Source of the DNA: an uncultured Holophagae bacterium
GTDB lineage: Bacteria > Acidobacteriota > Thermoanaerobaculia > Thermoanaerobaculales > Sulfomarinibacteraceae
DNA: 64,000 bases
Direction of reading: 5' to 3'
Assembly: GCA_963844865.1 (NCBI GenBank)
Contig: CAWJPY010000001.1
Span: 81,415 to 145,414 of the forward strand
In this document: positions 22,230 through 36,846 of the stretch, piece by piece
Numbering within the stretch: the stretch's first letter is position 1
How the letters are laid out: the number at the start of each line of letters is the position of its first letter
Notes under the pieces: model-generated
Databases searched by the model: none
The model's input: only the letters and a program-made list of their open reading frames with translations
Told to the model about the DNA's origin: nothing
Program-made: the position numbers and the translations under genes

Positions 22230-22302
22230 GGGCCGTTAGCTCAGCTGGTAGAGCATCGGACTTTTAATCCGGTGGTCCCGGGTTCGAGTCCCGGACGGCC
22301 CA
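22230..22302 (+). tRNA. tRNA-Lys: tRNA-Lys (anticodon UUU)
   Basis: The cloverleaf was folded by hand: GGGCCGT/ACGGCCC acceptor, GCTC/GAGC D-stem, TCGGA-CTTTTAA-TCCGG anticodon arm, CCGGG-TTCGAGT-CCCGG T-arm, discriminator A. CCA is not encoded (CTC follows). Confidence 0.93.
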
Positions 22303-22378
22303 CTCACCCTGGAAGCACCTCTCACCGGAACGGCCTCGATATCGTTCGCGCCGTCCGCCCCGCACCCAACCTCACGGC

Positions 22379-22614
22379 GCGCCCCGCCCCGGCCAGCGGG
22401 TGGCCGTATGGCCGTCCCTCCCCCTCTCCGCCAGGCCTGCGACCCCCTCGGCCACGGCCACACACCGCTGCCCGAGCCGTGGTCGAGTCCCGGACGGCCC
22501 ACCAGGCTTCGTTCTCAGCCGTAGGATGAGAACGAAGCCTGCCACGGCGTAGCCGCAGGCGAAGCCGGGTCGCCCCGGGTCTCGAGACTCGGCTGAGAAC
22601 TACGCCCTGGCAGG
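22379..22614 (+). repeat. copy B of the repeat element, containing a second copy of the tRNA-Lys T-arm/acceptor end plus CCA (22483-22505)
   Basis: TCGAGTCCCGGACGGCCCAC at 22483-22502 is identical to tRNA positions 22284-22303 (24/26 when extended 5'). The flanks are homologous to 2039-2246 on the minus strand. The downstream part folds into a 12-bp hairpin (22505-22539) and a 16-bp long-range stem (22536-22551 with 22600-22615). Confidence 0.6.
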
Positions 22615-22789: not shown

Positions 22790-23788
22790 ATGGCGACACG
22801 CATGCCGAGCTCGACAGGGGTCGATCAACGTGAGCGGCCCGGCGAGCTCTGCGACACCTGCACGCTGTTTCCCGACTGCGCCCGTCGCCGCCAGCAGCAG
22901 ACTCCGGTACTCGAATGTGAGCTCTACCAGGAGGGCGACTGGAGTGTCGACCTGGTGGCGGCGCTGGTCGACCGCAACGCCGGGCAGCGGGGCGGGCTGA
23001 TCTCGACCCTGGAGGGCATCCAGGCCAAGTACGGCTACCTGCCCGAGGGTGCGCTGCGGGTGGTCGCGGAGCGCACCGGCCGGTCCCTGGTCGACATCTA
23101 CGGCGTGGCGACCTTCTACCGCGCCTTCAGCCTCGAGCCCCGCGGCAAGCACCTGTGCTCGGTCTGCGTCGGCACGGCGTGTCACGTCCGCGGCGCCCCG
23201 CTCGTCCATGACGAGTTCGAGCGCCAGCTCGAGGTGGAGGCCGGTCACACCACCTCAGACGGCGAGTTCACGCTCGAGACCGTCAACTGCCTGGGCGCCT
23301 GCGCCCTCGGGCCGATGGTGGTGATGGACGGGCACTACTTCTCGAACGTCGATCGGCGAAAGGTCGCAGATGTGATCTCGAAGACCCGGGTCGGCCTCGA
23401 CTTCGTGACGCCCGCCGGCGACGCCCGCGTATTTCCGGTGGAGGTCTACTGCGCCCGCTGCAATCACAGCCTGATGGACCCCGACCACCCCATCGAGGGC
23501 CAGCCGTCGGTGCGGGTCACCATCTCGTTCGGCCGCCGCCACGGTTGGCTGCGGCTCTCCTCCCTGTACGGCAGCTACACCATCGAGTCGGAGCACGACA
23601 TCCCGCCGGACACGGTGGCCAACTTCTTCTGTCCCCACTGCCACGGGGAGCTCGCCGGGGCCACCGACTGCCCGATGTGCGGGGCGCCCATGGTGCCGCT
23701 GATCGTGCGCGGCGGCGGCATGGTCCAGATCTGCTCGCGGCGCGGCTGCCACAGCCACATGCTCGACCTCAACGGCGTCAACCTGTGA
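22790..23788 (+). CDS. NuoE/HoxE/HydC-like [2Fe-2S] subunit with extra Cys-rich N- and C-terminal regions
   Basis: The central region LISTLEGIQAKYGYLP...VATFYRAF...HLCSVCVGTACHVRGA...VNCLGACALGP is the thioredoxin-like 2Fe-2S fold of NuoE. The C-terminal ~125 aa carry CxxC x3 plus CxxxxCH. The start is uncertain (a GTG near 22947 would give a canonical-length N-terminus). Confidence 0.8.
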   Translation: MATRMPSSTGVDQRERPGELCDTCTLFPDCARRRQQQTPVLECELYQEGDWSVDLVAALVDRNAGQRGGLISTLEGIQAKYGYLPEGALRVVAERTGRSLVDIYGVATFYRAFSLEPRGKHLCSVCVGTACHVRGAPLVHDEFERQLEVEAGHTTSDGEFTLETVNCLGACALGPMVVMDGHYFSNVDRRKVADVISKTRVGLDFVTPAGDARVFPVEVYCARCNHSLMDPDHPIEGQPSVRVTISFGRRHGWLRLSSLYGSYTIESEHDIPPDTVANFFCPHCHGELAGATDCPMCGAPMVPLIVRGGGMVQICSRRGCHSHMLDLNGVNL

Positions 23789-23804
23789 CGGTGACGGAGG
23801 CCTG

Positions 23805-26800
23805 ATGGAGAAGCTGCAGTCCATCGAGGAGTTCCACGGCCTCGGCGAGCGCCTGCGCGTCGACAGCCGGGCTGCTGTGGGGCCCACCATCGTCATTCCA
23901 GCCGGAACCTGCGGCCAGGCGAGCGGAGCCAACGACCTGATCCGGGTCACCAAACGGACGCTGCTCGAACGCGGCCTGGGGGATCGGGTGGCGCTCCGGA
24001 TCACCGGCTGCCACGGCTACTGCCAGGCGGAGCCGTCGGTGCTCGTGGAGCCGCACCGGACCTTCTACCCGAAGGTCGACATCGACGGCATGGTGCGCAT
24101 CGTCGAGGCGACGGCGGCAGGTGGGATCGTGGAGGACCTGCTGTTCTCAGACCCCGCGACCGGCCGCCGCATCGAGCGCCAGGACGACGTCCCGTTCTTC
24201 GTCCGTCAGCAGCGGCTGCTGCTGCGTCGCAACGAGGCGGTGGACCCGATCAGGATCTTCAACGCCATCGAGCGCGGCGGCTACGCGGCGTTCGTCGGCC
24301 TGCTGGAGTCCGGCCGCGCCGAGGATGTCCTCGACGCCCTGCGCCGATCCGGCCTGCGGGGCCGCGGCGGCGCCGGGTTCCCGACCTGGCGCAAGTGGCA
24401 GATGCTCGCCGAACGCCCCTCGGACCGCGGCAAGTTCCTGGTGTGCAACGCCGACGAGGGCGACCCCGGCGCCTACATGGACCGCAGCCTGCTCGAGGGC
24501 AACCCCCACTCGATCCTCGAGGGCATGCTGATCGGGGCCTTCACCACCGGCGCCACCGAGGGCGTGATCTACGTGCGCGCCGAGTACCCCCTCGCCATCA
24601 AACACCTGACCATCGCGCTCCGCCAGGCCCGCGAGCTGGGCCTGCTCGGCGACGACATCCTCGGCGCTGGCTTCGCTTTCGAGGTGGCGCTGGTGCGCGG
24701 CGCCGGCGCCTTCGTGTGCGGCGAGGAGACGGCGCTGATCGCGTCGATCGAGGGCCGCATGGGCGAGCCCCGACAGCGGCCGCCGTTCCCGGTCGAGCGC
24801 GGCATCGACGGCCGCCCGACGGTGATCAACAACGTCGAGACCTGGGCCAACATGCCGCTGATCGTCGGCGAGGGGGCGGAGGCGTACGCCGCCGCGAGCG
24901 GCGGCGCGGGAGGCGGTACCAAGATCTTCAGCCTGGTGGGAAAGGTCGCCAACACCGGTCTGGTGGAGGTGCCCATGGGCACCCCCATCGCCGACATCGT
25001 GTACGGGATCGGGGGCGGCTCGTCCTCGGGCAAGCGGATCAAGGCAGTGCAGACGGGAGGTCCTTCCGGCGGCTGCATCCCGGCCGCCCGCTTCGACCTG
25101 CCCATCGACTACGACAGCCTGGCGAGCGCCGGCTCGATCATGGGCTCCGGGGGCATGATCGTGATGGACGACGACACCTGCATGGTGGACGTCGCCAGGT
25201 ACTTCATGAGCTTCCTGCGCGAGGAGTCCTGCGGCAAGTGCTTCACCTGCCGCAAGGGCACCCAGCGCATGCAAGAGATCCTCTCCGACATCAGCGAGGG
25301 GCGGGGAACCCTTGCGCAGATCGACCTGCTCGAGGAGCTGGCGCAGGTGGTCCGCGACACCTCCATGTGCGGCCTCGGCCAGTCCGCGGCCAACCCGGTG
25401 CTGACCACCCTGCGCAGCTTCCACGACGAGTACCGCCGCCACGTTGTGGACCGCCGCTGCGACGCCTTCGTGTGCACCGAGCTGGTCGGAGCGCCCTGCC
25501 AGGCGGCGTGCCCGGTCGGCACCGAGGCGTGGCGCTACGTGGCGCACATCGCGCGCGGCGAGGTGGAGGAGGCCTACCGGGTGATCCGCGAGGCCAACCC
25601 CTTCCCGTCGGTGTGCGCGCGCGCCTGCGACCACCCGTGCGAGGAGCGCTGCCGGGCCGGCACCAGCGGCGGCGACGCGGTGGCCATCCGCGCCCTGAAG
25701 CGCTTCGTCACCGACCGCGTCGAGCCCTCCGCCTACCGTCCGGCGCGGCGTCCCTGGGCGGACGGCTCACCGCCGCGCATCGCGGTGATCGGCGCCGGGC
25801 CGGCGGGGCTCACGGCGGCCCACATGCTGTCCCTCGCCGGTGGTCGCGTCACCGTCTTCGAGGCGGACACCGAACCGGGCGGCATGCTCTATTGCGCCAT
25901 CCCTTCCTACCGGCTGCCCCGCGAGGTGGTCGAGCGCGAGATCGAGGCGCTGCTCGACGACACCGTCGAGGTCCGCTGCGGCGTCGCGCTGGGCCGCGAC
26001 GTCACCATCGACGGCCTCCTTGCAGACGGCTACGACGCGGTGCTCCTGGCCATGGGCGCCCACAAGAGCCGCGCGCTCGACCTCGACGGCGAGGACGCCC
26101 GGGGCGTCTTCCCCGCCATCGAGTTCCTGAAGGCGTTCAACCTCCGTGGGGAGCAGCTCGCCCGGGGACGGGTGGTGGTGGTCGGGGGCGGCAACTCGGC
26201 CATCGACGCCGCGCGGACGGCGATCCGCCAGCGCGACGTGGAAAGCGTCACCATCCTCTACCGTCGCACCCGCGCCGAGATGCCGGCCTTCGCCGAGGAG
26301 ATCGACGCCGCGCTCGAGGAGGGGATCGTCCTCGAGACGCTGGCGGCGCCGGCGGGCATCGACACCACCGACGGAGCACTGTCGCGCCTGGAGTGCCTCC
26401 GCAACACCCTCGGCGACGCCGACGCGAGCGGCCGCCGGCGCCCGGTACCGGTCCCCGGCAGCGAGTTCTCACTCGACCTCGACACCCTGATCGTCGCCAT
26501 CAGCGAGGACTCGGGCGTCGATGCCGTCACCCCGGCGCGCGGTGGAGGCATCGAGATCACCGCCCGCAACACCGTCAAGGTCGACCCCGAGACGCTGCAG
26601 ACCAGCCGGGAGGGGGTGTTCGCCGCCGGCGACGTGGTCAGCGGGCCCAACACCATCGTGGACGCCGTGGCGGCCGGCAAACGGGCGGCGGCGATGATCG
26701 AGCGCTTCCTCCTCGGGCGCCCGCTCCAGATACCGGCCACGGGTTCGGTCCCGACCGTCTACGTGGAACCTCCGGCGGCGGGCGACGCCACCGCCCCCGA

Positions 26801-26975
26801 GACGGACCGGGTCGAGACCCCCCGCGCGTCGGTGGCCTGGCGGCGGCGCAACTTCGCCGAGGTGGAGGTGACCTTGTCGCCGGAGGAAGCGCGGCGCGAG
26901 GCCGGCCGCTGCCTCCGCTGCGATCTCGAGTTCACGAAACCGGCGGAGCACGCGCTGGCGAAGGTGGGAGGGTAG
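23805..26975 (+). CDS. NuoF/HydB-like FMN/NADH subunit fused to a GltD-like FAD/NAD(P)H oxidoreductase
   Basis: The N-terminal 2Fe-2S-like domain is followed by GLRGRGGAGFPT, CGEETALIASIEG and ESCGKCFTCRKG..MCGLG (NuoF core). Then come the GltD-type FeS region (CQAACPV..., CARACDHPCEERC), VIGAGPAGLTAA and VVGGGNSAIDAA dinucleotide folds, and the C-terminal CLRCD. Confidence 0.88.
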   Translation: MEKLQSIEEFHGLGERLRVDSRAAVGPTIVIPAGTCGQASGANDLIRVTKRTLLERGLGDRVALRITGCHGYCQAEPSVLVEPHRTFYPKVDIDGMVRIVEATAAGGIVEDLLFSDPATGRRIERQDDVPFFVRQQRLLLRRNEAVDPIRIFNAIERGGYAAFVGLLESGRAEDVLDALRRSGLRGRGGAGFPTWRKWQMLAERPSDRGKFLVCNADEGDPGAYMDRSLLEGNPHSILEGMLIGAFTTGATEGVIYVRAEYPLAIKHLTIALRQARELGLLGDDILGAGFAFEVALVRGAGAFVCGEETALIASIEGRMGEPRQRPPFPVERGIDGRPTVINNVETWANMPLIVGEGAEAYAAASGGAGGGTKIFSLVGKVANTGLVEVPMGTPIADIVYGIGGGSSSGKRIKAVQTGGPSGGCIPAARFDLPIDYDSLASAGSIMGSGGMIVMDDDTCMVDVARYFMSFLREESCGKCFTCRKGTQRMQEILSDISEGRGTLAQIDLLEELAQVVRDTSMCGLGQSAANPVLTTLRSFHDEYRRHVVDRRCDAFVCTELVGAPCQAACPVGTEAWRYVAHIARGEVEEAYRVIREANPFPSVCARACDHPCEERCRAGTSGGDAVAIRALKRFVTDRVEPSAYRPARRPWADGSPPRIAVIGAGPAGLTAAHMLSLAGGRVTVFEADTEPGGMLYCAIPSYRLPREVVEREIEALLDDTVEVRCGVALGRDVTIDGLLADGYDAVLLAMGAHKSRALDLDGEDARGVFPAIEFLKAFNLRGEQLARGRVVVVGGGNSAIDAARTAIRQRDVESVTILYRRTRAEMPAFAEEIDAALEEGIVLETLAAPAGIDTTDGALSRLECLRNTLGDADASGRRRPVPVPGSEFSLDLDTLIVAISEDSGVDAVTPARGGGIEITARNTVKVDPETLQTSREGVFAAGDVVSGPNTIVDAVAAGKRAAAMIERFLLGRPLQIPATGSVPTVYVEPPAAGDATAPETDRVETPRASVAWRRRNFAEVEVTLSPEEARREAGRCLRCDLEFTKPAEHALAKVGG

Positions 26976-26978
26976 CCG

Positions 26979-27656
26979 ATGGTCACGCTCACCATCAACG
27001 GCCTCGAGGTGTCCGTCGAGCGGGGCTCGACGATCCTGGAGGCGGCGCAGTTCCTCGGCTTCCCGATCCCGACCCTGTGCCACATGGAGGGCCTGTCGCC
27101 CTACGGCGCCTGCCGCCTGTGCGTGGTCGAGGTCGGCAACGGCTCCCGTACCCAGCTCGTCACGTCCTGCACCCACCCGGTGGTCGAGGGCATCACGGTC
27201 CGCACCGCCTCGGAGCGCGTGGTGCGGGCGCGGCGGATGATCGTCGAGCTGCTGCTGGCGTCGTGCCCGCAGTCGAAGACGATCCAGGACCTGGCGTCGG
27301 CGCTCGACGTCCGCCAGCAGCGCTTCCGGCAGGAGCACGAGGACTGCATCCTGTGCGGCCGCTGCGTCCGCATGTGCGCCGAACAAATGGCCGGCTCGGC
27401 GATCGGCTTCCGCGGCCGCGGACCGACCCGCAGCATCGGCACACCGTTCGACGCCGCCTCCGAGAAGTGCCGGCTCTGCGGCGGCTGCATGTACGTCTGT
27501 CCCGCGTGCGAGCTGCGCTGCACCTACACCGAGCCGGAGAAGGCCATCTGCGGCGGCTGCGCCAACCTGGCGCCGCCGTGCGTGGACAAGCCCCGGTTCG
27601 ACGACATGATGTGCTTCCTGGACCCGTGCGTGGCCTGCGAGATCAAACCCGACTGA
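26979..27656 (+). CDS. NuoG/HydA N-terminal-like [2Fe-2S]/[4Fe-4S] ferredoxin subunit (no catalytic domain)
   Basis: TINGLEVSVERGSTILEAA...PTLCH...GACRLCVVEV (plant-type 2Fe-2S as in NuoG), followed by CILCGRCVRMC and CRLCGGCMYVCP cluster motifs. Confidence 0.82.
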   Translation: MVTLTINGLEVSVERGSTILEAAQFLGFPIPTLCHMEGLSPYGACRLCVVEVGNGSRTQLVTSCTHPVVEGITVRTASERVVRARRMIVELLLASCPQSKTIQDLASALDVRQQRFRQEHEDCILCGRCVRMCAEQMAGSAIGFRGRGPTRSIGTPFDAASEKCRLCGGCMYVCPACELRCTYTEPEKAICGGCANLAPPCVDKPRFDDMMCFLDPCVACEIKPD

Positions 27657-27676
27657 GTGCGGGGGGAGGAGAGAAG

Positions 27677-29266
27677 ATGTCTCTGTCGAGAATCAACGCG
27701 ACGGCGGCGACGCTGACCAAGAATCGGACCGAGGGCTCGGTGGTCCCCACCTCCGGGATGTGCGTCACCTGCGTCGACGGCTGCATCGGCATGTGCGAGA
27801 TCGGCAAGTCCGCCTACCGCGGCCACGAGGTGATCTACCCGCAGCCGTTCGGCGTCATCACCACCGCCGGCGAGAAGCTCTACCCCGTGGACTACTCGCA
27901 CTTCAACATCATGGGCACGGCGGTCGGCGCCCACGGCATCGAGGCCGACAGCGACCGGGCGGTGTTCCCGGCGGTGGACCTGGAGGTGCGCTTCGGCCAC
28001 GACGACGGTCTCAAGTTCCGGCGGCCGTGGATCATCCCCGGCATCGGCTCCACCGACGTGGCGCGCAACAACTGGGAGGGCATCGCCATCGGCTCGGCGC
28101 TCGCCGGGACCGGGCTGACCATCGGCGAGAACGTGGTCGGCATGGACATGGAGGCGGTCATCAAGGACGGTCGCGTCACCGACACCTCAGACCTCAAGCG
28201 CCGCGTCAAGCTCTACAAGGACCACCAGATCGACGGCTACGGCGCGATCATCGTCCAGGCCAACGTGGAGGACACGCGGCTGGGCACGCAGGAGTACGCG
28301 ATCCAGGAGCTCGGTGTGGAGTGCGTCGAGCTCAAGTGGGGTCAGGGCGCCAAGAACATCGGCGGCGAGGTCAAGATCAAGGACCTCGCCAAGGCCCAGG
28401 AGCTGTACCGCCGCGGGTACATCGTGCTGCCGGACCCGACCGACGAGCGCGTCGTCCAGGCCTTCCACCGCGGGACGTTCCGCGAGTTCGAGCGCCACTC
28501 ACGGGTCGGCATGGTCGAGGAGGAGGCGTTCGCCCAGAGGGTCGAGGAGCTGCGCTCAGCCGGCGCCCGCTACGTCTTCCTGAAGACCGGGGCCTACCGT
28601 CCGGCGGACCTGGCGCGGGCGGTGGCCTGGTCGTCGAAGTACGGGATCGACCTGCTGACCGTGGACGGAGCGGGAGGTGGAACGGGCATGAGCCCGTGGC
28701 ACATGATGAACGAGTGGGGGGTCCCGCCGGTGGAGCTCCACTCCCTGCTCTACCAGTACGCCGACCGGCTCTTCAGCGAGGGCCGCCCGCTGCCCGCGAT
28801 CGCGCTGGCCGGCGGCTTCGTCTTCGAGGACCAGATCTTCAAGGGGCTCGCCCTCGGTGCGCCGTACGTCAAGCTCGTGGGCATGGCGCGGGCGCCCATC
28901 GCGGCCGCCATGGTCGGCAAGACCATCGGCCGCACCATCGACGAGGGCCAGATCCCGGTCTACGTGGAGCGCTTCGGCCGCAGCCGCGACGAGATCTTCG
29001 TCACCGCCGCCGAGCTCCGCGTCCTGGTCGGCGACGAGGCGTTCGAGAAGCTCCCGACCGGCGCCATCGGGCTCTACACCTACTTCGAGCGGCTCGCCCA
29101 GGGGCTGCGGCAGCTCATGTGCGGGGCACGCAAGTTCACGCTCGAGCACATGTCGCGGGACGATCTCGCGTGCCTGACCCGCGAGGCCGCCGACATCAGC
29201 GGCATCCGCTACCTGCTGGACGTGGACCGCGAGGAGGTGGACACGATTCTCGACGGCCGCCACTGA
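27677..29266 (+). CDS. glutamate-synthase-related FMN-binding (GltS FMN domain) protein with an N-terminal Cys cluster
   Basis: LKWGQGAKNIGGEVK, TVDGAGGGTGMSP and LAGGFVFEDQIFKGLALGAPYVKLVGMAR match the GltB FMN/TIM-barrel domain. The N-terminus has CVTCVDGCIGMC. No amidotransferase or GXGXG domains are present. ATG 27677 follows GGAGGAGAG. Confidence 0.82.
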   Translation: MSLSRINATAATLTKNRTEGSVVPTSGMCVTCVDGCIGMCEIGKSAYRGHEVIYPQPFGVITTAGEKLYPVDYSHFNIMGTAVGAHGIEADSDRAVFPAVDLEVRFGHDDGLKFRRPWIIPGIGSTDVARNNWEGIAIGSALAGTGLTIGENVVGMDMEAVIKDGRVTDTSDLKRRVKLYKDHQIDGYGAIIVQANVEDTRLGTQEYAIQELGVECVELKWGQGAKNIGGEVKIKDLAKAQELYRRGYIVLPDPTDERVVQAFHRGTFREFERHSRVGMVEEEAFAQRVEELRSAGARYVFLKTGAYRPADLARAVAWSSKYGIDLLTVDGAGGGTGMSPWHMMNEWGVPPVELHSLLYQYADRLFSEGRPLPAIALAGGFVFEDQIFKGLALGAPYVKLVGMARAPIAAAMVGKTIGRTIDEGQIPVYVERFGRSRDEIFVTAAELRVLVGDEAFEKLPTGAIGLYTYFERLAQGLRQLMCGARKFTLEHMSRDDLACLTREAADISGIRYLLDVDREEVDTILDGRH

Positions 29267-29283
29267 GCGGCGGAGGAGGCACC

Positions 29284-29616
29284 ATGAAGCTCGCGATGCC
29301 GGTTGCCAAGGGTCGCCTGGCGTCGTCCCTCGAGGTCGCCGAGTCCTTCGACATCGTCGAGGTGGACCTCGTGGCGCGAAGCGCGTCGAACGCCTGGCGC
29401 TCGGACCCGGCGCACCGCAGCGGCGCGGAGCTCGCCGAGTGGCTCCTCGGCGAGGGCGTCGACCTCGTGATCGCCGGGAACATCGGGTCGTGGGAGCGCG
29501 GCTGGCTCGAGGGACGCGGGCTGCGAGTCCTCGCCGGGGTGCCCCGGGAAGCGCCTCGCGAGCTCGTCAGGGCGTACCTCGAGGACGAGCTCGAGCAGGC
29601 GACGACCACAGCCTAG
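29284..29616 (+). CDS. NifX/NifB-C-terminal/NafY-like (dinitrogenase FeMo-cofactor-binding fold) small protein
   Basis: MKLAMPVAKGRLAS...FDIVEV...LVIAGNIGSWERGWLEGRGLRVL matches the pattern of this family. GGAGGAGG RBS is present. It is the last gene of the operon. Confidence 0.6.
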   Translation: MKLAMPVAKGRLASSLEVAESFDIVEVDLVARSASNAWRSDPAHRSGAELAEWLLGEGVDLVIAGNIGSWERGWLEGRGLRVLAGVPREAPRELVRAYLEDELEQATTTA

Positions 29617-29875
29617 CCCGGACCGAGAGCCGTTCCTCGAGTCCGGAGGTGTGATTCGAGGTCCATCCGAGACGCCATGGGACGGGGCCTCGCCGGCGGC
29701 CGCCCCTCGTCGGCGGCGTTCGGCTGCAGCGATCAAACCCCGGAGATGGGCGGCGGTCGTCGACGGCGTGCTACGCTCGCGCAATGCCAGAGGGTACCTC
29801 TGGCCGACCTGCCTGGTCCCGACAACGTCCTCCCTGCGCGGAACGGCGTCGGGGTCGGGAATTGGAGACTCGCCC

Positions 29876-32800
29876 ATGCGCAACCACCCGCTTCGCCATG
29901 CCCTCCTTCTGCTCGCCCTCTCACTGCTCGTCGGCGGCCCACTCACCGCAGGCGAGAAGCGCGAGCCCGTGGGGCCCTCCGCAAACCTCACCTACCGGCT
30001 GATCGGGCCCGCGGCGGGCGGCCGCGTATCCCGGGTCGCCGGGGTGCCCGGCGACGGGCGCACGTTCTGGGTCGCGTCCGCAGCGGGCGGCGTGTGGAGG
30101 TCGAGCGACGATGGCCACCAGTGGGATCCGGTGTTCGACGGGCAGCCGGTGTCGTCCATCGGCTCCGTCGCTGTCGCCCCGTCCGATCCCAACGTCGTCT
30201 GGGTGGGCTCCGGCGAGGCCAACATCCGCGGCAACGTAGGAGAGGGCGACGGGATCTACCGTTCCACCGATGGCGGCGAGACGTGGTCGCACTCATGGAC
30301 CGCGGAGGGGCAGATCGGGACCATCGCCGTGCACCCGCGCGACGCGGACGTCGCATTCGCCGCCGTCCTGGGCAGCCCGTTCGGCCCTCAGACCCGAGCG
30401 CGGGGTGTACCGGACGACCGACGGCGGGGCGACCTGGCAGCGGGTGCTGTTCGTCGATCGCGACACCGGCGCCTCGGACGTCTGCTTCGACCCCTCGAAC
30501 CCGCACATCCTGTTCGCCGGGACGTGGCAGGCGCGGCGCACGCCCTGGAGCTTCACCAGCGGCGGTCCGGGCAGCGGCTTGTACGTGTCCCGCGACGGCG
30601 GCGGCACCTGGAAGCGCCTGCAGGGGGATGCGGCTGCCGGAGGGGATCTGGGGCAAGGTCGGGGTGCGGGTGGCGCCGACCGACGGCCGGCGCGTGTACG
30701 CGCTCATCGAGGCCGACAAGGGCGGGCTCTTCCGCTCCGACGACGGCGGCAGCACCTGGGCGCTGGTCAACCCGTCGCGCGGCCTGCGCCAGCGCGCCTG
30801 GTACTACACCACGCCTGACCGTCGAACCCCGCAACCCGGACGTCGTCTGGTTCCCCGAGGTCGACCTGCTCAAGACCATCGACGGCGGCGACACCATGCG
30901 CTCCGTGAAGGGCGGCGGATGGGACTACCACGACCTGTGGATCGACCCCTCGGAACCGACACGGATCATCGTCGGCAGCGACGCCGGCGTGTCCCTGACC
31001 TCCGACGGCGGTGAGACCTGGCGTGCGACCGGCGCTGCCCATCTCGCAGCTCTACCACGTGGCCGCGGACACACGGGTGCCCTACCGGGTCCTGGGCAGT
31101 CTCCAGGACCTGGGCACCGCGTCCGGCCCCAGCCTGGCCCTCGACGCGGAGAAGCATCCTGCTCTCGGACTGGCACGCCGTTGGCGGCGGCGAGGCCGGG
31201 TGGGTCGTGCCCGATCCCGAGGACCCGGACGTCGTGTACGCCGGCGAGTACCTGGGGCTCATCTCCCGCTACGACGCGGCGCACCCGCCGCCGCGCAGCG
31301 TGGGCATCTACCCGGACGACGGGGATGGTCACGGCGCCGGAGACCTGCGGTACCGCTTCCAGTGGACGGCGCCCATCGTCGTCTCGCCCCACGACCCGGA
31401 GGTCGTCTACCACGCCGCCAACGTGCTCTTCCGCACCCGCGACGGCGGCCAGACCTGGCAGGCGATCAGCCCGGACCTGACCCGCAACGACCCGGTCAAG
31501 CAGCGCTGGTCCGGGGGCCCCATCACCGGCGACAACACGGGCGTGGAGTTCTACGACACCATCTTCGCGGTCGCCGAGTCCCCGGTGCAGGCGGGGGTGA
31601 TCTGGGCCGGAAGCGACGACGGCCTCGTCCACGTCACCCGGGACGACGGCGCCAGCTGGACCGACGTCACCGCCGCCCGGCCTGCCCGGAGTGGGGCACC
31701 GTGGCCTGCATCGAGCCGTCGCCCTTCGAACGCCGGCACGGCGTACGTGGTGGTCGACGCCCATCGCCTGGACGACGAGACGCCCTATCTGTGGAAGACC
31801 ACCGACTACGGCGCGAGCTGGGAGCGTCTGGGCGACAAGCTGGATCGCGAGGTCTACCTGCATGTCGTGCGCGAGGACGCGAGCTCCCCGGCCTGCTCTA
31901 CCTGGGCACCGAGCGGGGCGTGATGGTCTCCCACGATGGGGGCGAGAGCTGGCAGTCGCTGCAGCTCAACATGCCCACCGTGGCCATCGCCGATCTGGTC
32001 GTCGCCGGCGACGACCTGGTGGTGGGCACCATCGGCCGGTCGGCGTGGATCCTCGACGACCTGACGCCGGTCAGGGAGCTCTCGGAGTCGATGCGGAGCG
32101 AGCCGGTGCACCTCTTCCCGGTGCGGCCGGCGATCCGCTGGCACCGCGCCTCGGCGTACGACGGGCGCCTGGGCTCGCGGGACGGGGCCGGGGACAATCC
32201 GCCCACCGGCGCGACCTTCACATACTGGCTGGCCGCCAAGCCCGCGCAACCGATCACGGCGGAGGTCCTGGACGGCGACGGCACCGTGATCCGCACGCTT
32301 CGCAGCGAGCTGGAACCGCCCTACACCACACCCGACCACCCGGACTGGGACCCGGAGGAGGAGCGCGAGCCGGAGCTCGAGACCAAGGCGGGCCTGAACC
32401 GCGCGACGTGGGACCTCGCGTATGAGAAGTCGCGCTGGGTCGCCGGTGCGCGCAACGAGACAGGCGGCGCCGTGCCGGGTCCCGTCGCGCTGCCGGGCGA
32501 GTACACGCTGCGCCTCAACGTCGCCGGCGAGGCGTACACCCAGCCACTGCGGATCGAACCGGATCCGGAGTCCACGGCGTCGCGCACCGACCTGGAGGCG
32601 CAGCTCGCGTTCGGGCTCGAGCTGCGGGACCGGATGTCCGAGATCACCGACCTGGTGATGCGGATCCGCGACGTCCGAGACCAGCTCGCCGGGTACGAGG
32701 GGCGGCTGGCGGGACGCCCGGACGCCGGCGACCTCGCCGCGCAGGCGAAGCGCATCTCGGCGGGGCTGACCGAGGTCGAGGGCGCGCTCATCGCGCGGCG

Positions 32801-33077
32801 TGCGGAGGTGGACTACGACATCCTGGCCGGCCGCGACGGCGGAACCAAGCTCGCCTCGCGGCTGGGCTGGTTGGCCGCCGGCTCCCTCGACCACGAGGGC
32901 CCGCCGACCCAGGGCATGCGCGAGGTGGCCTTCGATATCGCCCGCGGGGTCGCGGAGCAGAAGAAGGCGCTGGAGCGCTGGATCGGGCAGGACCTGGCCG
33001 CCTTCAACGCCGCGGCGGCCCGGCTCGGGCTGCCGCACGTCGTCTCCGATGCCACAAGCGAGGCTCAGTCGAAGTAG
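29876..33077 (+). pseudogene. BNR/sortilin (VPS10)-like repeat glycosidase-like exported protein, disrupted by about 8 frameshifts
   Basis: Signal peptide MRNHPLRHALLLLALSLLVGG, then repeated S.DGG.TW motifs. The conserved sequence continues across all three forward frames, with switches near 30385, 30625, 30815, 31025, 31140, 31680, 31730 and 31885. The last 1.2 kb is a single frame. Confidence 0.8.
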
Positions 33078-33716: not shown

Positions 33717-34103
33717 ATGGGCAGACCCGAGAAGCTCAGGACTGTGGGTTGCCGCGCCGGGGTGCGCGGTTTCAAACCCGTGGGACGGCCGGTGGTGGAG
33801 CTCGAGGTGGAGGTGCTGCGCCTCGACGAGCTCGAGGCGCTGCGCCTGGCGGACCTGGAAGGTCTTTACCAGGAGGCTGCCGCGGAGAGGATGGGGGTCT
33901 CCCGTCCCACCTTCGCCCGCATCCTCCAGCGGGCCAGGGCGACCGTCGCCAGGGCCCTGCTGGAGGAGCGGTTCCTGGCCGTGGGCGAGGGCCCAGTGGT
34001 CCGCTCACCGGACGGGACGCTGCCCTGCCCGATCCACGGTGGACGCCGGCGGCGCGGCCGCGGCTGCCGCTGCCGGCGCGGTCAGGGCCGGACCGAGACC
34101 TGA
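33717..34103 (+). CDS. DUF134 (UPF0251) putative DNA-binding protein with a Cys/Arg-rich tail
   Basis: MGRPEKLRTVGC...FKPVGRP N-terminus and the sigma-70 region-4-like HTH (EAAERMGVSRPTFARILQRAR). The tail is CPIHGGRRRRGRGCRCRRG. Confidence 0.75.
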   Translation: MGRPEKLRTVGCRAGVRGFKPVGRPVVELEVEVLRLDELEALRLADLEGLYQEAAAERMGVSRPTFARILQRARATVARALLEERFLAVGEGPVVRSPDGTLPCPIHGGRRRRGRGCRCRRGQGRTET

Positions 34104-34138
34104 GGACGTCGACGACGGGACAGAGAGGAGAACAGGGA

Positions 34139-34546
34139 ATGATGACGATCGCGGTTCCGATGATCGGTGAGAGGTTCAGCGAGCACTTCGGGGGCGCCCA
34201 GTCGTTCGCGCTGTATGACGTGGACGAGGAAGGACGGACGTTCGACGGACGGCGAGTCCTGGCCACGCCTGCCCATGAACGGGGGGTCTTCCCCGCTTGG
34301 CTGCGGGAGATCGGCGCCACGGTGGTGCTGGCCAGCGGCATGGGACCGCGGGCCAGCGGCATGCTCGCCCAGTACGGCATCGAGGTCGTGCTCGGGGTAC
34401 AGGGAGACGACCCCGATCAGGTCGTACGCGACTTCCTGGCCGGGACCCTGCAGGCAACCGGCGAGCCCTGCCACGACCAGAGCTTCCACGACTGCTCGCA
34501 CCACGAACGACGTGGCGGCGGCGGGTGCGGCGGTCACCACAACTGA
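34139..34546 (+). CDS. NifX/NafY-like cofactor-binding-fold protein with a Cys/His-rich tail
   Basis: IAVPM...SEHFGGAQSFALYDV...VLASGMGPRASGMLAQYGIEVV. The tail is CHDQSFHDCSHHERRGGGGCGGHH. Confidence 0.7.
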   Translation: MMTIAVPMIGERFSEHFGGAQSFALYDVDEEGRTFDGRRVLATPAHERGVFPAWLREIGATVVLASGMGPRASGMLAQYGIEVVLGVQGDDPDQVVRDFLAGTLQATGEPCHDQSFHDCSHHERRGGGGCGGHHN

Positions 34547-34556
34547 GGAGGATTGG

Positions 34557-34955
34557 ATGGCACAGGACAGAAGCAGTGCCCAGAGCACGGGAATCAGGGG
34601 CCGCACCCCCGGCGGGCGTGGCAGTGGGGGCGGACGAGGCATGGGAGGAGGTGGACGAGGCATGGGAGGAGGTGGACGAGGCATGGGAGGAGGTGGGGGA
34701 AGAGGAGCCGGCGGAGGCGGAGGAATGGGTGGTGGCGGCGGCAGGGGAATGGGCCCGGGCGGGGGCGGCATGGGCGGGGGCGGCTTCTGCGTCTGCGCCA
34801 AGTGCGGCCAGCGATTCCCTCATCGCCCAGGTGTGCCGTGTCTGGAGGAGCGCTGCCCCGATTGCGGCGTCGCACTGGTGCGGGAGGGCTCGGCACATCA
34901 CCGCGAGATCGAGGCGCGCCGGAGCCGCAGAGGTGGTGACAACGACGCGGGCTGA
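34557..34955 (+). CDS. Gly/Arg-rich low-complexity protein with a C-terminal zinc-ribbon-like Cys motif
   Basis: About 70 aa of GGRGMGGG-type repeats, then FCVCAKCGQRFPHRPGVPCLEERCPDCG. GGAGGA lies before ATG 34557. Confidence 0.6.
   Translation: MAQDRSSAQSTGIRGRTPGGRGSGGGRGMGGGGRGMGGGGRGMGGGGGRGAGGGGGMGGGGGRGMGPGGGGMGGGGFCVCAKCGQRFPHRPGVPCLEERCPDCGVALVREGSAHHREIEARRSRRGGDNDAG
34632..34694 (+). repeat. perfect in-frame 21-bp tandem repeat x3
   Basis: GGACGAGGCATGGGAGGAGGT occurs three times, encoding GRGMGGG x3. Confidence 0.9.
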
Positions 34956-34996
34956 TGCCTGACTCAGGGCGAGACAGCCCGGAGAGGAGCACGGAG

Positions 34997-35299
34997 ATGC
35001 CGTTTGGAGATGGAACTGGACCGTTGGGAGCGGGCCCCGGAACGGGATGGGGTGCAGGCTGGTGTCGCGGCCCTCGGGGTGGCCGTGGCGGCCACGGCTG
35101 GCGGAACGTCTACCACGCCACCGGCATGCCCGGGTGGATGCGCGGCGGCTGGTCGGGGGCGAGGGGAGCCTATCCCACGGCGCCCCACGGCGGCGAGCGC
35201 GACCTGCTCGAGCGCCAGGTCGAGGCCGTGGAGGCGGAGCTGCGATGGATGAGGCAGCGGCTCGAGGAACTCGGCCACGAGGACGGAAAGTCGCAGTAG
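34997..35299 (+). CDS. DUF5320-like protein (Gly-rich N-terminus plus coiled coil)
   Basis: MPFGDGTGPLGAGPGTGWGAGWC... start and the C-terminal heptad-like LLERQVEAVEAELRWMRQRLEEL. Confidence 0.6.
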   Translation: MPFGDGTGPLGAGPGTGWGAGWCRGPRGGRGGHGWRNVYHATGMPGWMRGGWSGARGAYPTAPHGGERDLLERQVEAVEAELRWMRQRLEELGHEDGKSQ

Positions 35300-35349
35300 C
35301 CGCAAGACGACAGACGCGCCCGCGGCGGGCACAGGACAAGGAGAGGCAC

Positions 35350-36593: not shown

Positions 36594-36846
36594 ATATGTG
36601 TGCGATGAGTGCGGACACCGCTTCGAGCGCTTTCAGCTCATGAGTGCGCCGCCAGCAAAGGTCTGTCCGTCCTGCGGGGGCCCGGTGCGCCGTCTGATCG
36701 GGAGCGGCTCCGGCTTCCTGATCCGGGGTCGGCAGCATGCCCGCTCGACGGCTGCGGGGGCCGGTCGTTGCGGTCACGAGGCGCCTTGCTGCGGCCGCGA
36801 GGAGCGCTGTGAGCGGCCACCTTGCGGTGAGCAGCGCGATGCCTGA
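36580..36846 (+). CDS. FmdB-family zinc-ribbon protein
   Basis: PTYEYVCDECGHRFE...CPSCGG is the CxxC..CxxC signature. GTG start after GGAAGGAG. Confidence 0.7.
   Translation: MPTYEYVCDECGHRFERFQLMSAPPAKVCPSCGGPVRRLIGSGSGFLIRGRQHARSTAAGAGRCGHEAPCCGREERCERPPCGEQRDA

What the first reader, a model, noticed from the sequence alone, without database searches (positions are those of the whole stretch)
22790..29616. A HydABC/Bfu-type NADH module (NuoE-like, NuoF::GltD fusion, NuoG-N-like) is coupled to a stand-alone GltS FMN domain and a NifX-like protein
Five tightly spaced genes (gaps of 3-20 nt) encode:
- a NuoE/HydC-like 2Fe-2S protein;
- a 1056-aa fusion of a HydB/NuoF-like FMN-NADH subunit with a GltD-like FAD/NAD(P)H subunit;
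- a NuoG/HydA N-terminal FeS protein with no hydrogenase or molybdopterin domain;
- a 529-aa protein consisting of the glutamate-synthase FMN/TIM-barrel domain plus an N-terminal CxxCxxxCxxxC motif, with no amidotransferase or GXGXG domains;
- a NifX-fold protein.

Established knowledge: NuoE/F/G-N trios form the core of flavin-based electron-bifurcating HydABC-type enzymes. In glutamate synthase, GltD feeds electrons to the GltB FMN site.

Inference: this could be a bifurcating or confurcating NADH/NADPH/ferredoxin-linked reductase whose catalytic site is a GltB-like FMN centre acting on an unknown 2-oxo-acid- or imine-type substrate, possibly ammonia-dependent glutamate formation. The same window holds a complex I cluster that lacks NuoEFG.
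Basis: partly seen in the sequence, partly recalled or inferred. Interest (0 to 1): 0.65.

Follow-up and report, generated by a model that had tools for sequence, protein, structure and literature searches.

The report
Bfu redox complex with GltS-like subunit
Four tightly linked genes encode an uncharacterised iron-sulfur flavoenzyme complex, kept almost unchanged in hundreds of uncultured sediment bacteria, that joins an electron-bifurcation-type NADH module to a catalytic subunit distantly like glutamate synthase; it probably links NADH, NADPH or ferredoxin to glutamate/ammonia metabolism.

Summary
The five genes are real and sit at the stated coordinates, with gaps of 16, 3, 20 and 17 nt. 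Genes 1-4 form a strictly conserved cassette:
- a BfuC/HydC-like protein with extra Cys4 domains;
- a BfuB/HydB-like protein fused to a GltD-like module;
- a short BfuA-like FeS protein;
- a 529-aa FMN TIM-barrel protein with an N-terminal Cys4 motif.

All 60 related loci with enough upstream DNA carry the whole cassette in the same order. They come from more than 12 phyla and are all MAGs. Gene 4 stays about 80% identical while its GC3 ranges from 0.31 to 0.92, so the conservation reflects old, strong constraint rather than recent transfer.

The GltD fusion is optional: 8 of the 60 loci have a canonical HydB with a ferredoxin-type C-terminus instead. Gene 4 is never missing, so it is the constant catalytic partner. 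The NifX-like gene 5 is a lineage-specific addition.

Gene 4 is only a distant relative of the GltB FMN domain. It keeps the QGAK...R and GGTGxSP motifs but lacks the 3Fe-4S cysteines. Glutamate dehydrogenase genes lie within 8 kb in 14 loci.

Best reading: a new Bfu-family class whose third substrate is an imino/2-oxo acid, probably 2-oxoglutarate plus NH3. Substrate and bifurcation are untested. I found no description of it in the literature I searched.

The parts
22790..23788 (+). g1: BfuC/HydC-like subunit with a thioredoxin-like [2Fe-2S] domain (residues 58-199), plus a conserved 127-aa C-terminal domain
   Evidence: PF01257 E 7e-44. Best PDB match is HydC 8a6t_C. The NuoE cluster ligands C126/C131/C167/C171 and 8 C-terminal cysteines (C221...C320) are 100% conserved in 33 orthologues.
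22850..22927 (+). N-terminal Cys4 motif of g1 (CDTCTLFPDCARRRQQQTPVLECELY). In other phyla it is encoded as a separate ~113-aa protein with 1-2 copies, directly upstream of g1.
   Evidence: Motif scan: in frame with the NuoE domain in the window and in Acidobacteriota loci L005-L014, and in a separate upstream ORF elsewhere. The small ORF family is present in 42 loci and has no Pfam hit.
23405..23785 (+). C-terminal double-Cys4 (zinc-ribbon-like) domain of g1
   Evidence: Only weak zinc-ribbon Pfam hits (DZR, 9e-5). 55-89% identical in all cassettes. The 8 cysteines are invariant.
23805..26975 (+). g2: BfuB/HydB-like NADH/FMN subunit (N-terminal thioredoxin-like domain, FMN, SLBB, [4Fe-4S]; residues 1-549) fused to a GltD/NfnA-like module (2x[4Fe-4S], FAD, NAD(P)H; residues 553-1041). 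The module takes the place of the usual C-terminal ferredoxin-type domain.
   Evidence: Pfam and NCBIfam. PDB ranking. Cluster cysteines are 100% conserved. 52 of 60 cassettes are fused and 8 of 60 are unfused, with a Fer4 C-terminus shown for L001.
26979..27656 (+). g3: short BfuA-like FeS subunit with [2Fe-2S], 2x[4Fe-4S], and a C-terminal tail carrying 8 further invariant cysteines
   Evidence: Fer2_4 and Fer4_7. Best PDB match is the 247-aa NuoG-like chain 9mqx_A, 131 bits. Cysteine conservation in 79 orthologues.
27677..29266 (+). g4: FMN TIM-barrel catalytic subunit, a distant PF01645 (GltS FMN domain) relative with an N-terminal C29xxC32xxxC36xxxC40 cluster motif
   Evidence: Pfam. AF2 model with pLDDT 84. 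Foldseek. hhalign to E. coli GltB, probability 79%. Cys4 is 100% conserved in 83 sequences. About 80% identity across phyla.
29284..29616 (+). g5: NifX/Nitro_FeMo-Co-fold protein, a lineage-specific accessory gene and possibly a cofactor or cluster carrier
   Evidence: PF02579 E 2e-7. Matches the MrpORP C-terminal domain at E 2e-15, below the cutoff. Found downstream of g4 only in L007, L008 and L011. Paralogue at 33749-34546, next to two MinD/Fer4 ATPases.

Best explanation
g1-g4, together with the small Cys4 module that is fused to g1 in this genome, encode one soluble multi-flavin iron-sulfur complex of the Bfu (HydABC-like) family.

Proposed wiring:
- NADH binds at the FMN of the HydB-like part of g2.
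- The [2Fe-2S] cluster of g1 and the [4Fe-4S] cluster next to that FMN form the core that is conserved in bifurcating enzymes.
- g3 is a wire of Fe-S clusters. Its extra cysteine-rich tail hands electrons to the Cys4 cluster of g4, and from there to the FMN of g4.
- g4 is the site of the 'third substrate'. This is most probably the reduction of an imino/2-oxo acid, and my best guess is 2-oxoglutarate + NH3 <-> L-glutamate, using free ammonia because there is no amidotransferase domain.
- The second, low-potential partner is ferredoxin in the minority form, which has a canonical HydB C-terminus. In the form present in this window it is NADP(H), bound by the GltD-like module that replaces that C-terminus.

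The thermodynamically easy direction is NADH plus NADPH (or reduced ferredoxin) driving glutamate formation.

Shown: the gene set, the domains, the conserved ligands, the strict co-conservation and the optional GltD.
Inferred: that the proteins form one complex, the electron path, the substrate and any energetic coupling.

My probabilities:
- one complex with g4 as the catalytic subunit: about 0.8;
- true bifurcation or confurcation: about 0.5;
- substrate is 2-oxoglutarate/glutamate: about 0.4.
For: Co-conservation:
- 60 of 60 loci with at least 5.3 kb upstream carry g1-g2-g3-g4 in order; 77 of 80 g3-g4 gaps are 55 nt or less.
- The loci span Acidobacteriota, Planctomycetota, Ignavibacteriales, Zixibacteria, KSB1, Latescibacterota, Fibrobacterota, Calditrichaceae, Bacteroidota, Gemmatimonadaceae, Myxococcia and Coatesbacteria. 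513 of the 600 matched stretches in the GTDB species-genome collection encode a relative.
- g4 stays about 80% identical while its GC3 runs from 0.31 to 0.92, tracking the host. This indicates long-standing strong constraint, as expected of a subunit with many contacts.

Bfu type:
- PDB ranking of g2, g3 and g1.
- The Pfam counterparts of the InterPro domains that define BfuB, BfuC and BfuA (PMC9304861) are present.

g4 as the constant catalytic module:
- GltD is missing in 8 of the 60 cassettes, whereas g4 is never missing.
- More distant g4 paralogues (48-50% identity) stand alone without Bfu genes, as a self-contained redox enzyme would.

Electron hand-over:
- 8 extra invariant cysteines in the g3 tail and an invariant Cys4 in g4.

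GltS-like chemistry:
- PF01645 hit above the cutoff.
- hhalign aligns g4 'ELKWGQGAK226' with GltB 'QIKVAQGAK', R246 with the Arg of GltB 'AKLR', 'DGAGGGTGMSP' with 'GYDGGTGASP', and the following GG...D..K..LGA motif.
- Among the 50 Foldseek hits listed, GltS (7mfm_G) has the highest query TM-score and the highest identity.

Glutamate link:
- GDH genes of two different families lie within 8 kb in 14 loci from at least 6 phyla.
- In 5 of these loci the GDH is directly downstream; the representative of that group that was scanned (L056) passes the NADP-specific GdhA cutoff.

Regulation:
- A dedicated sigma-54 response regulator (40 loci) and a histidine kinase (34 loci) lie upstream.
Against: - No biochemical data exist, and all carriers found are MAGs.
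- g4 is so divergent that HMMER does not connect it to solved GltS sequences. hhalign gives only 79% probability, and outside residues 320-500 the alignment has low confidence.
- Foldseek ranks FMN-dependent 2-hydroxy-acid oxidases slightly ahead of GltS by E-value.
- g4 has no cysteines where GltB has its 3Fe-4S cysteine motif, and there is no ammonia-delivering domain.
- Thermodynamics (my estimate from textbook potentials): the glutamate couple, about -130 mV standard and lower in vivo, is neither a mid-potential donor like H2 or NADPH nor a strong enough sink to drive ferredoxin reduction from NADH. Coupling is therefore not obviously needed.
- In the fused form the ferredoxin-binding C-terminal domain of HydB, which is part of the published Bfu definition, is absent.
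- 68 of 82 loci show no GDH within 8 kb.
- The window itself lacks the regulator genes and has no sigma-54-like site.
Confidence: 0.45

Rival explanations
1. The same complex, but g4 acts on a different substrate. Candidates are another 2-oxo, 2-hydroxy or imino acid such as pyruvate/lactate, glyoxylate/glycolate, 2-hydroxyglutarate, pyrroline-carboxylate or an N-alkyl-glutamate-type compound. The Bfu module supplies or accepts the electrons.
For: - The best Foldseek E-values are to lactate monooxygenase, flavocytochrome b2 and glycolate, mandelate and lactate oxidases.
- Only about a third of the PF01645 model is matched.
- NCBIfam has no model for g4.
- Most loci have no GDH nearby.
- A confurcating lactate-type dehydrogenase would make thermodynamic sense (my inference, by analogy with Etf-dependent lactate dehydrogenase).
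Against: - g4 has 'DGAGGGTGMSP' where, from my own knowledge of the family signature (PROSITE PS00557, S-N-H-G-[AG]-R-Q), 2-hydroxy-acid oxidases carry their catalytic His. g4 matches the GltS motif there instead.
- The QGAK...R loop motif is GltS-like.
- The GDH neighbourhood is enriched, with two GDH families involved.
Confidence: 0.3
2. A non-bifurcating enzyme. Electrons flow linearly from NADH (HydB-like FMN) and/or NADPH (GltD FAD) through Fe-S clusters to g4, giving an ammonia-dependent NAD(P)H glutamate synthase with an unusual HydBC-derived input module and no energetic coupling.
For: - Both pyridine-nucleotide couples are already more negative than the glutamate couple, so no coupling is required (my estimate).
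- The fused form lacks the ferredoxin-interacting C-terminal domain.
- GltD-to-GltB electron transfer is the textbook precedent (PMC8097209).
Against: - The core is of the bifurcating HydB/HydC type, including the N-terminal thioredoxin-like domain.
- The unfused form keeps the canonical ferredoxin-type C-terminus.
- Keeping two separate nucleotide sites plus a mobile-type HydC subunit with extra invariant metal sites is hard to explain for a simple linear reductase.
Confidence: 0.15
3. g1-g3 form an Nfn/Stn-type NADH/NADPH(/ferredoxin) transhydrogenase. g4 is an independent enzyme that merely shares the operon.
For: The GltD part is most similar to the NADPH modules of StnC, NfnA and NfnB, and the BfuB part is close to NfnB 9n5u_B.
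Against: - 8 of the 60 cassettes have no GltD, and so no NADPH site, yet keep g4.
- g4 is never absent and is the most conserved protein of the set.
- The g3 tail and the g4 N-terminus carry matching invariant cysteine sets.
- In the fused form no ferredoxin-binding domain remains for an Nfn reaction.
Confidence: 0.07
4. g1-g3 are the missing NADH-input (N) module of the NuoEFG-less complex I encoded 6 kb upstream.
For: The window's nuo cluster lacks E, F and G. Nuo-type Bfu complexes have been proposed (PMC9304861).
Against: - The two clusters are separated by an ECF-type sigma factor gene, purA and a tRNA.
- No nuo genes were seen beside the cassette in related loci: none among the called genes of L001-L004 or among the recurrent neighbour clusters.
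- g3 lacks the NuoG C-terminal domain.
- g2 scores nearly twice as high against HydB-type chains as against NuoF.
Confidence: 0.03

Closest known systems
Nfn-Bfu / Stn transhydrogenases (NfnABC of Caldicellulosiruptor and Thermococcus; StnABC of Sporomusa ovata; PDB entries 9bov, 9n5u and 8oh5 assigned to these from memory)
   Same: HydB-like FMN subunit, HydC-like [2Fe-2S] subunit, N-terminal HydA-like FeS domain, and a GltD/NfnB-like FAD-NADPH module with two [4Fe-4S]. These are the best PDB matches for both halves of g2.
   Different: - Here the GltD module is fused to the C-terminus of BfuB, where it replaces the ferredoxin-type domain. In Nfn/Stn it is part of BfuA.
- BfuA is only 225 aa, with no Fdh/NuoG-like domain.
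- A fourth FMN subunit (g4) is always present.
- GltD is dispensable, being absent in 8 of 60 cassettes.
Type 2 Bfu enzymes with a short BfuA and separate catalytic subunits, such as the tungsten aldehyde oxidoreductase Wor-Bfu (I take PDB 9mqx to be this enzyme; that assignment is from memory)
   Same: A small BfuA-like protein of 225-247 aa wires a BfuBC core to an unrelated catalytic subunit. 9mqx_A is the best PDB hit of g3. The classification logic follows PMC9304861.
   Different: - The catalytic subunit is an FMN TIM barrel rather than a tungstopterin enzyme.
- g3 has an extra tail with 8 cysteines.
- BfuC has two additional Cys4-bearing domains.
Bacterial NADPH-glutamate synthase (GltB/GltD)
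   Same: A GltD-type FAD/2x[4Fe-4S] NADPH module together with an FMN TIM barrel of family PF01645 that keeps the QGAK...R, GGTGxSP and GG..D..K..LGA motifs.
   Different: - No amidotransferase, central or GXGXG domain.
- No 3Fe-4S cysteines; an N-terminal Cys4 motif instead.
- GltD is fused to a HydB-like protein and is optional.
- Sequence similarity is so low that HMMER does not link g4 to solved GltS sequences.
HydABC electron-bifurcating [FeFe]-hydrogenase
   Same: HydB- and HydC-type core and the HydA N-terminal FeS domain.
   Different: No H-cluster domain. The third-substrate site is a flavin on a separate subunit.
Dihydropyrimidine dehydrogenase (works-like comparison only)
   Same: Combines a GltD-like NADPH/FAD/2x[4Fe-4S] module with an FMN TIM barrel that reduces an organic substrate through an Fe-S wire. 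DPD is among the PDB hits of the g2 C-terminal part.
   Different: DPD is a single polypeptide with a DHODH-type barrel and has no HydBC module.

Membership tests
Bfu (HydABC-like) family as defined by Schut et al. 2022 (PMC9304861) | BfuB carries the NuoF FMN domain, the SLBB domain and the NuoF [4Fe-4S] domain (IPR011538, IPR019554, IPR019575) | tested here: met
   PF01512 (150 bits), PF10531 (28.9 bits against a cutoff of 27) and PF10589 (110 bits) on g2. These are the Pfam counterparts of the InterPro entries. g2 1-560 scores 514-634 bits against solved BfuB chains, against about 325 for NuoF.
Bfu (HydABC-like) family as defined by Schut et al. 2022 (PMC9304861) | BfuB carries a C-terminal 4Fe-4S ferredoxin-type domain (IPR017896; clusters B3/B4, the route to ferredoxin) | tested here: not met
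   The window's g2 has no Fer4-type hit after the NuoF part; the GltD Fer4_20 domain starts at residue 553. The feature is met in the unfused form shown for L001 (616 aa with Fer4_7); 8 of the 60 cassettes lack GltD. The window's protein would not have been caught by the published domain query.
Bfu (HydABC-like) family as defined by Schut et al. 2022 (PMC9304861) | BfuC is a NuoE-type thioredoxin-like [2Fe-2S] protein (IPR002023) | tested here: met
   PF01257 E 7e-44. The four ligand cysteines are invariant. Best PDB hit is HydC.
Bfu (HydABC-like) family as defined by Schut et al. 2022 (PMC9304861) | BfuA has at least a 2Fe-2S ferredoxin-type domain and a 4Fe-4S ferredoxin-type domain, and is encoded with BfuB and BfuC | tested here: met
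   Fer2_4 and Fer4_7 on g3. g3 lies 3 nt after g2. It is conserved in all cassettes.
Bfu (HydABC-like) family as defined by Schut et al. 2022 (PMC9304861) | Catalyses electron bifurcation or confurcation between NAD(H), ferredoxin and a third substrate | not testable with these tools
   Needs an anaerobic enzyme assay.
Glutamate synthase large subunit (GltB / Fd-GltS) | N-terminal class II glutamine amidotransferase domain, central domain and C-terminal GXGXG domain | tested here: not met
   Pfam finds only PF01645 on g4. None of these domains is found on g1-g5.
Glutamate synthase large subunit (GltB / Fd-GltS) | FMN-binding synthase domain (PF01645) | tested here: met
   46.8 bits against a gathering score of 20.4, but only model positions 185-303 of 369 are matched. 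hhalign to E. coli GltB gives probability 79% and E 1.6e-5. Foldseek finds GltS 7mfm_G at E 2e-9 and TMq 0.48.
Glutamate synthase large subunit (GltB / Fd-GltS) | [3Fe-4S] cluster bound by three cysteines after the last barrel strands (E. coli 'CKYLRICHLNNC') | tested here: not met
   The aligned g4 segment 'AAMVGKTIGRTIDEG' has no cysteine. The only invariant cysteines are C29/32/36/40.
Glutamate synthase large subunit (GltB / Fd-GltS) | Synthase-site loop motif Q-G-A-K...R. Its role in binding 2-oxoglutarate is from my own knowledge of the Synechocystis and Azospirillum structures. | tested here: inconclusive
   g4 Q223-G-A-K226 and R246 align with GltB QGAK and 'AKLR', but in the low-confidence part of the hhalign alignment. 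These residues are invariant within the close orthologues.
Nfn-Bfu / Stn transhydrogenase | The GltD/NfnB-like NADPH module is part of the BfuA subunit, which also has an Fdh/NuoG-like domain, and BfuB has a ferredoxin-binding C-terminal domain | tested here: not met
   The GltD module is fused to BfuB. g3 is 225 aa with no such domain. There is no BfuB C-terminal ferredoxin domain.
FMN-dependent 2-hydroxy-acid oxidase/dehydrogenase family (PF01070) | Family HMM match and the catalytic His/Arg signature S-N-H-G-[AG]-R-Q (the signature is from my own knowledge) | tested here: not met
   There is no PF01070 hit on g4 at E <= 0.01. The corresponding segment reads DGAGGGTGMSP. Only fold-level similarity is seen.

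The most novel reading that the evidence does not exclude
This is a previously unrecognised, widespread class of Bfu electron-bifurcating enzyme. Its third-substrate site is a GltS-like FMN subunit, making it an ammonia-dependent, energy-coupled glutamate synthase/dehydrogenase. In the majority form the ferredoxin-binding domain of BfuB has been replaced by a GltD module, so that NADP(H) rather than ferredoxin is the low-potential partner. The enzyme would then link the NADH pool, the NADPH pool and nitrogen assimilation in many uncultured anaerobic phyla.
Probability: 0.25. Interest if true: 0.85.

Novelty: new variant of a known kind. Interest (0 to 1): 0.68.

Why it matters
Bfu-type enzymes are the least understood family of flavin-based electron bifurcators. 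Their published catalogue lists hydrogenase, formate dehydrogenase, NADPH, F420, CO, pyruvate, aldehyde, aryl-CoA, peroxide and quinone modules, but no GltS-like one.

What this cassette would add:
- a flavin-based third-substrate site;
- a natural experiment in which the ferredoxin-binding domain is swapped for an NADPH/FAD module. The two forms could be compared directly to ask how the low-potential branch of Bfu enzymes works.

It is under exceptional sequence constraint, so it probably carries a substantial and currently unannotated flux. In metabolic reconstructions these genes are probably read as 'NuoEF', 'glutamate synthase small subunit' and 'glutamate synthase family protein'.

If the substrate is 2-oxoglutarate plus ammonia, this would be an ATP-independent route of ammonia assimilation, or an electron sink, that current models of these organisms lack.

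Tried and rejected
- A first AlphaFold run used 21 orthologues at about 85% identity. It gave pLDDT 53 and only generic TIM-barrel hits. A second run with 40-57%-identical relatives from the exhaustive search gave pLDDT 84.
- phmmer of g4 and hmmsearch of its family profile against PDB sequences gave no GltS hit. They returned only a chance ZZ-finger match and designed TIM barrels.
- The exhaustive HMMER search of 1.84 billion representatives found only 1055 clusters at E <= 1e-3. Canonical GltB is evidently not reached, so the search gave no functional name.
- NCBIfam returned nothing for g4.
- Literature searches combined Bfu/HydABC/NuoF with glutamate synthase/GltB, and also used the NCBI product name. 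They found no description of this cassette. The residue-level GltS literature is not in the library, so statements about Lys972/Arg992 rest on my memory.
- There is no Rfam element or riboswitch upstream of g1 in the window or in 8 loci.
- A sigma-54 -24/-12 scan found sites in about 17 of 68 loci, but none in the window. The sigma-70 and terminator scans found nothing informative inside the operon.
- Genomic island hypothesis: the 26-nt repeat of the tRNA-Lys 3' end occurs only twice, 199 nt apart, and does not flank the cassette. Cassette GC equals flank GC. Rejected.
- Recent horizontal transfer as the reason for 80% identity: rejected, because GC3 tracks each host.
- The listing of cluster members gave no organism names, so I identified no cultured carrier.
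- g1-g3 as the N-module of the neighbouring complex I: rejected (see rival explanations).

Full report
**The observation**

The window has about 70% G+C, so many spurious ORFs overlap the region. Five same-strand ORFs nevertheless have clear homologues and purine-rich ribosome-binding sites:
- g1, 22790-23788, 332 aa
- g2, 23805-26975, 1056 aa
- g3, 26979-27656, 225 aa
- g4, 27677-29266, 529 aa
- g5, 29284-29616, 110 aa

The gaps are 16, 3, 20 and 17 nt.
- g1 has a NuoE-type [2Fe-2S] domain.
- g2 has NuoF FMN, SLBB and [4Fe-4S] domains at residues 148-549, followed directly by a GltD-type Fer4_20 plus pyridine-nucleotide-disulfide oxidoreductase module at 553-1041.
- g3 has Fer2_4 plus a 4Fe-4S dicluster domain and nothing else.
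- g4 has only PF01645 and the motif C29xxC32xxxC36xxxC40.
- g5 has Nitro_FeMo-Co.

The nuo cluster at 5997-16741 runs nuoABCD then nuoHIJKLMN, with about 70 nt between D and H, so it indeed lacks E, F and G.

**What the parts are closest to**

Against all PDB sequences, residues 1-560 of g2 score 514-634 bits with nine chains of 584-630 residues deposited as HydB, NfnB, HoxF or NADH-dehydrogenase subunits, which I take to be the BfuB subunits of solved Bfu enzymes. These include NiFe-HydB 7t2r_B, NfnB 9n5u_B, 9mqx_B and HydB 8a6t_B, 7q4v_B and 7p5h_B. Complex I NuoF scores about 325 bits and formate dehydrogenase FdsB 347 bits. The alignments start at residue 29, so they include the N-terminal thioredoxin-like domain.

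Residues 563-1040 are closest to the GltD-like NADPH modules of chains 9bov_A, 9n5u_A (NfnA) and 8oh5_C and of Thermotoga NfnB. From memory I assign 9bov and 8oh5 to the Caldicellulosiruptor Nfn and the Sporomusa Stn enzymes; the depositors' molecule names do not say so.

g3 is closest to the 247-aa NuoG-like chain 9mqx_A, and next to the N-terminal parts of HydA. g1 residues 55-197 are closest to HydC.

At the junction in g2, the C-terminal ferredoxin-type domain of BfuB is absent and the GltD Fe-S region takes its place. In Bfu enzymes that domain carries clusters B3/B4 and is the route to ferredoxin.

**g4**

g4 is a very divergent member of the GltS FMN-domain family:
- The Pfam hit is above the gathering score but covers only a third of the model.
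- NCBIfam has no model for it.
- phmmer and a family profile do not reach solved GltS sequences.
- An exhaustive HMMER search of 1.84 billion cluster representatives finds only 1055 related clusters.

A good AlphaFold model (pLDDT 84, pTM 0.87) is an FMN-type TIM barrel. Its Foldseek hits are FMN-dependent 2-hydroxy-acid oxidases (E about 3e-10), type 2 IDI, and glutamate synthase 7mfm_G. Among the hits listed, the last has the highest query TM-score (0.48) and identity (17%).

Profile-sequence alignment with E. coli GltB (probability 79%, E 1.6e-5) is confident for residues 320-500:
- DGAGGGTGMSP aligns with GYDGGTGASP.
- AGGF..EDQIFKGLALGA aligns with DGGL..GVDIIKAAILGA.

When the alignment is extended, three further points emerge:
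- g4 ELKWGQGAK226 pairs with GltB QIKVAQGAK.
- R246 pairs with the arginine of 'AKLR'.
- No g4 cysteines fall where GltB has its 3Fe-4S ligands.

From my own knowledge, the QGAK...R loop contacts 2-oxoglutarate in GltS, and 2-hydroxy-acid oxidases have S-N-H-G-G-R-Q where g4 has GGGTGMSP. The active site therefore looks GltS-like rather than oxidase-like, but this is not proven.

**Conservation elsewhere**

Close g4 homologues are at least 80% identical across phyla. The best 80 are all MAGs, from Acidobacteriota (Holophagae and Thermoanaerobaculia, up to 91% identity, so the window is probably from that group), Planctomycetota, Ignavibacteriales, Zixibacteria, KSB1, Latescibacterota, Fibrobacterota, Calditrichaceae, Bacteroidota, Gemmatimonadaceae, Myxococcia and Coatesbacteria.

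Mapping the window's proteins onto these loci gave the following:
- Every locus with at least 5.3 kb upstream (60 of 60) has g1, g2, g3 and g4 in the same order.
- The g3-g4 gap has a median of 28 nt and is 55 nt or less in 77 of 80 loci.
- 52 cassettes have the NuoF::GltD fusion.
- 8 have no GltD match anywhere in the locus. In L001 (Phycisphaerales, CP070827) the g2 orthologue is a 616-aa HydB-type protein with a Fer4 C-terminus.
- g5 follows g4 only in three Thermoanaerobaculia or Sulfomarinibacter loci.
- Third-position GC of g4 ranges from 0.31 to 0.92 and follows the host locus, while the protein stays about 80% identical. The conservation therefore reflects long-term purifying selection, not recent spread.
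- Relatives at 48-50% identity, including an archaeal one, are not next to Bfu genes.

**Conserved metal ligands**

- g4: C29/32/36/40 are invariant in 83 sequences.
- g3: the 12 canonical cysteines ([2Fe-2S] plus two [4Fe-4S]) and eight more in the C-terminal tail (C177-C220) are all about 100% conserved in 79 sequences.
- g1: the four NuoE ligands and eight cysteines in the extra C-terminal domain are invariant in 33 sequences.
- g2: the NuoF [4Fe-4S] ligands, eight GltD cysteines and a C-terminal CxxC are conserved.

g1 also begins with a Cys4 motif (CxxCx5Cx12CELY at 22850-22927). In other phyla this motif is encoded, in one or two copies, by a separate ~113-aa ORF immediately upstream of g1. 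In the window and in Acidobacteriota loci L005-L014 it is fused in frame. That fusion argues that the small protein belongs to the complex.

**Neighbourhood**

Recurrent neighbours are:
- a sigma-54-dependent NtrC-family response regulator, in 40 loci;
- a histidine kinase with an unassigned N-terminal sensor domain, in 34 loci;
- the small Cys4 protein, in 42 loci;
- glutamate dehydrogenase, in 14 loci.

The GDH gene is directly downstream (178-348 nt) in five loci and elsewhere within 8 kb in the others. The GDHs belong to two different families. The representative of the directly downstream group that was scanned (L056) passes the NCBIfam cutoff for NADP-specific GdhA.

By my rough estimate, with one to three GDH genes per genome and about 14 flanking genes per locus, chance would give fewer than one such locus in 80. 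The adjacency also arose in several phyla and at different positions.

The window itself has purA and tRNA-Lys upstream and a BNR/sortilin-like ORF downstream. It has no regulator genes and no sigma-54-like site.

**Interpretation**

The data support one complex made of g1-g4, plus the Cys4 module, with a Bfu-type core. g4 is the invariant catalytic subunit that defines the third substrate, and g3 is the wire.

GltD cannot be the obligatory donor to the g4 FMN, because cassettes without GltD keep g4. The GltD module instead sits where BfuB normally carries the ferredoxin-reducing clusters. This suggests that NADP(H) replaces ferredoxin as the low-potential partner in the majority form.

The most likely chemistry at g4 is reduction of 2-iminoglutarate formed from 2-oxoglutarate and free ammonia. 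The evidence is the GltS-type motifs, the absence of an amidotransferase domain and the GDH neighbours.

Using textbook potentials, the direction NADH + NADPH (or reduced ferredoxin) to glutamate is strongly downhill. Neither glutamate-driven bifurcation nor NADH bifurcation to ferredoxin with glutamate formation as the sink looks favourable. The purpose of a coupled mechanism is therefore unclear. Possible purposes are high-affinity, ATP-independent ammonia assimilation, joint disposal of two reductant pools, or NADH-to-NADPH transhydrogenation driven by the amination step. These are inferences.

**Comparison with what is known, and novelty**

The 2022 Bfu classification defines the family by domains of BfuB, BfuC and BfuA. 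It lists hydrogenase, Fdh, Nfn, F420, Por, Codh, Wor, Bam, Rub, Mbh and Nuo types and 17 unassigned clades. Glutamate synthase is mentioned neither in the text nor in the one supplementary file held as text. Its domain query required a ferredoxin-type C-terminus and excluded metagenomic data, so it would have missed both the fused form and these MAG lineages.

Other full-text searches found no description of the cassette. Subscription-only literature cannot be excluded.

I file it as a new variant of a known kind. It is a Bfu-type complex, Type 2 in the sense of having a short BfuA and a separate catalytic subunit, with three new features:
- a new GltS-like flavin module;
- a new BfuB::GltD fusion;
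- extra Cys4 domains on BfuC.

It is not a member of GltB proper, of Nfn/Stn as defined, or of the 2-hydroxy-acid oxidase family. The fused form also fails one published Bfu criterion.

Noticed in passing
window 22230-22303 and 22477-22502: A tRNA-Lys(UUU) gene lies between purA and g1. A 26-nt copy of its 3' end (24 of 26 identical) lies 199 nt downstream, which looks like an att-site scar of a lost integrative element. There are only these two copies in the window, so it does not bracket the cassette.
   Followed up: yes
window 5997-16741 (+): An 11-subunit complex I operon, nuoABCD-HIJKLMN, with no nuoE, F or G. Its electron-input module is unknown. It is probably unrelated to g1-g3.
   Followed up: partly
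window 33749-38122 (+): A second Nitro_FeMo-Co (NifX-like) protein (33749-34546) is followed by two MinD/CbiA-type P-loop ATPases with inserted 4Fe-4S ferredoxin domains (35430-36593 and 36737-38122). Together with g5 this makes two NifX-fold genes within 5 kb, which suggests a cofactor- or cluster-handling system.
   Followed up: partly
window 46951-51833 (-): A membrane redox module: an NrfD-like protein fused to a class III cytochrome c domain, a Fer4_11 protein and a CCG/HdrD-like protein. It has an Hmc/Dsr/Qrc-like architecture, which points to an anaerobic respiratory lifestyle.
   Followed up: no
window 29651-33077 (+): A BNR/sortilin-like secreted protein appears split between two overlapping reading frames (29651-31480 and 31011-33077). 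This may be a frameshift, a pseudogene or a sequencing error.
   Followed up: no
window 2347-2696 (-): A tmRNA gene with tag peptide ANNDYALAA.
   Followed up: no
related loci, e.g. L022 2823-3176, L070 9971-10774, L034 78-1247, L042 11415-14630: An unassigned N-terminal sensor domain (...KELxCLYxI...P.AWQ(Y/H)PE...ARI.L...) recurs in three proteins near the cassette: the cassette-linked histidine kinase, a protein that also carries two copies of the Cys4 motif, and ~1070-aa PEP-utilising/PPDK-like proteins. The Cys4 motif (CxxCx5Cx~13CEE[FY]) itself has no Pfam family.
   Followed up: partly
L021 (Ignavibacteriaceae MAG) 1444-2856, 9758-11119, 14465-15712: Three glutamate dehydrogenase genes lie within 17 kb around one cassette.
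   Followed up: no
L088/L089 (archaeal contigs) 7824-7991 and 2052-2219: The stand-alone archaeal paralogue of g4 (48% identity) is preceded at 10 nt by a conserved 55-aa ORF of unknown function. A CCG/Fer4 (HdrD-like) gene and a LarA-like gene lie nearby.
   Followed up: no
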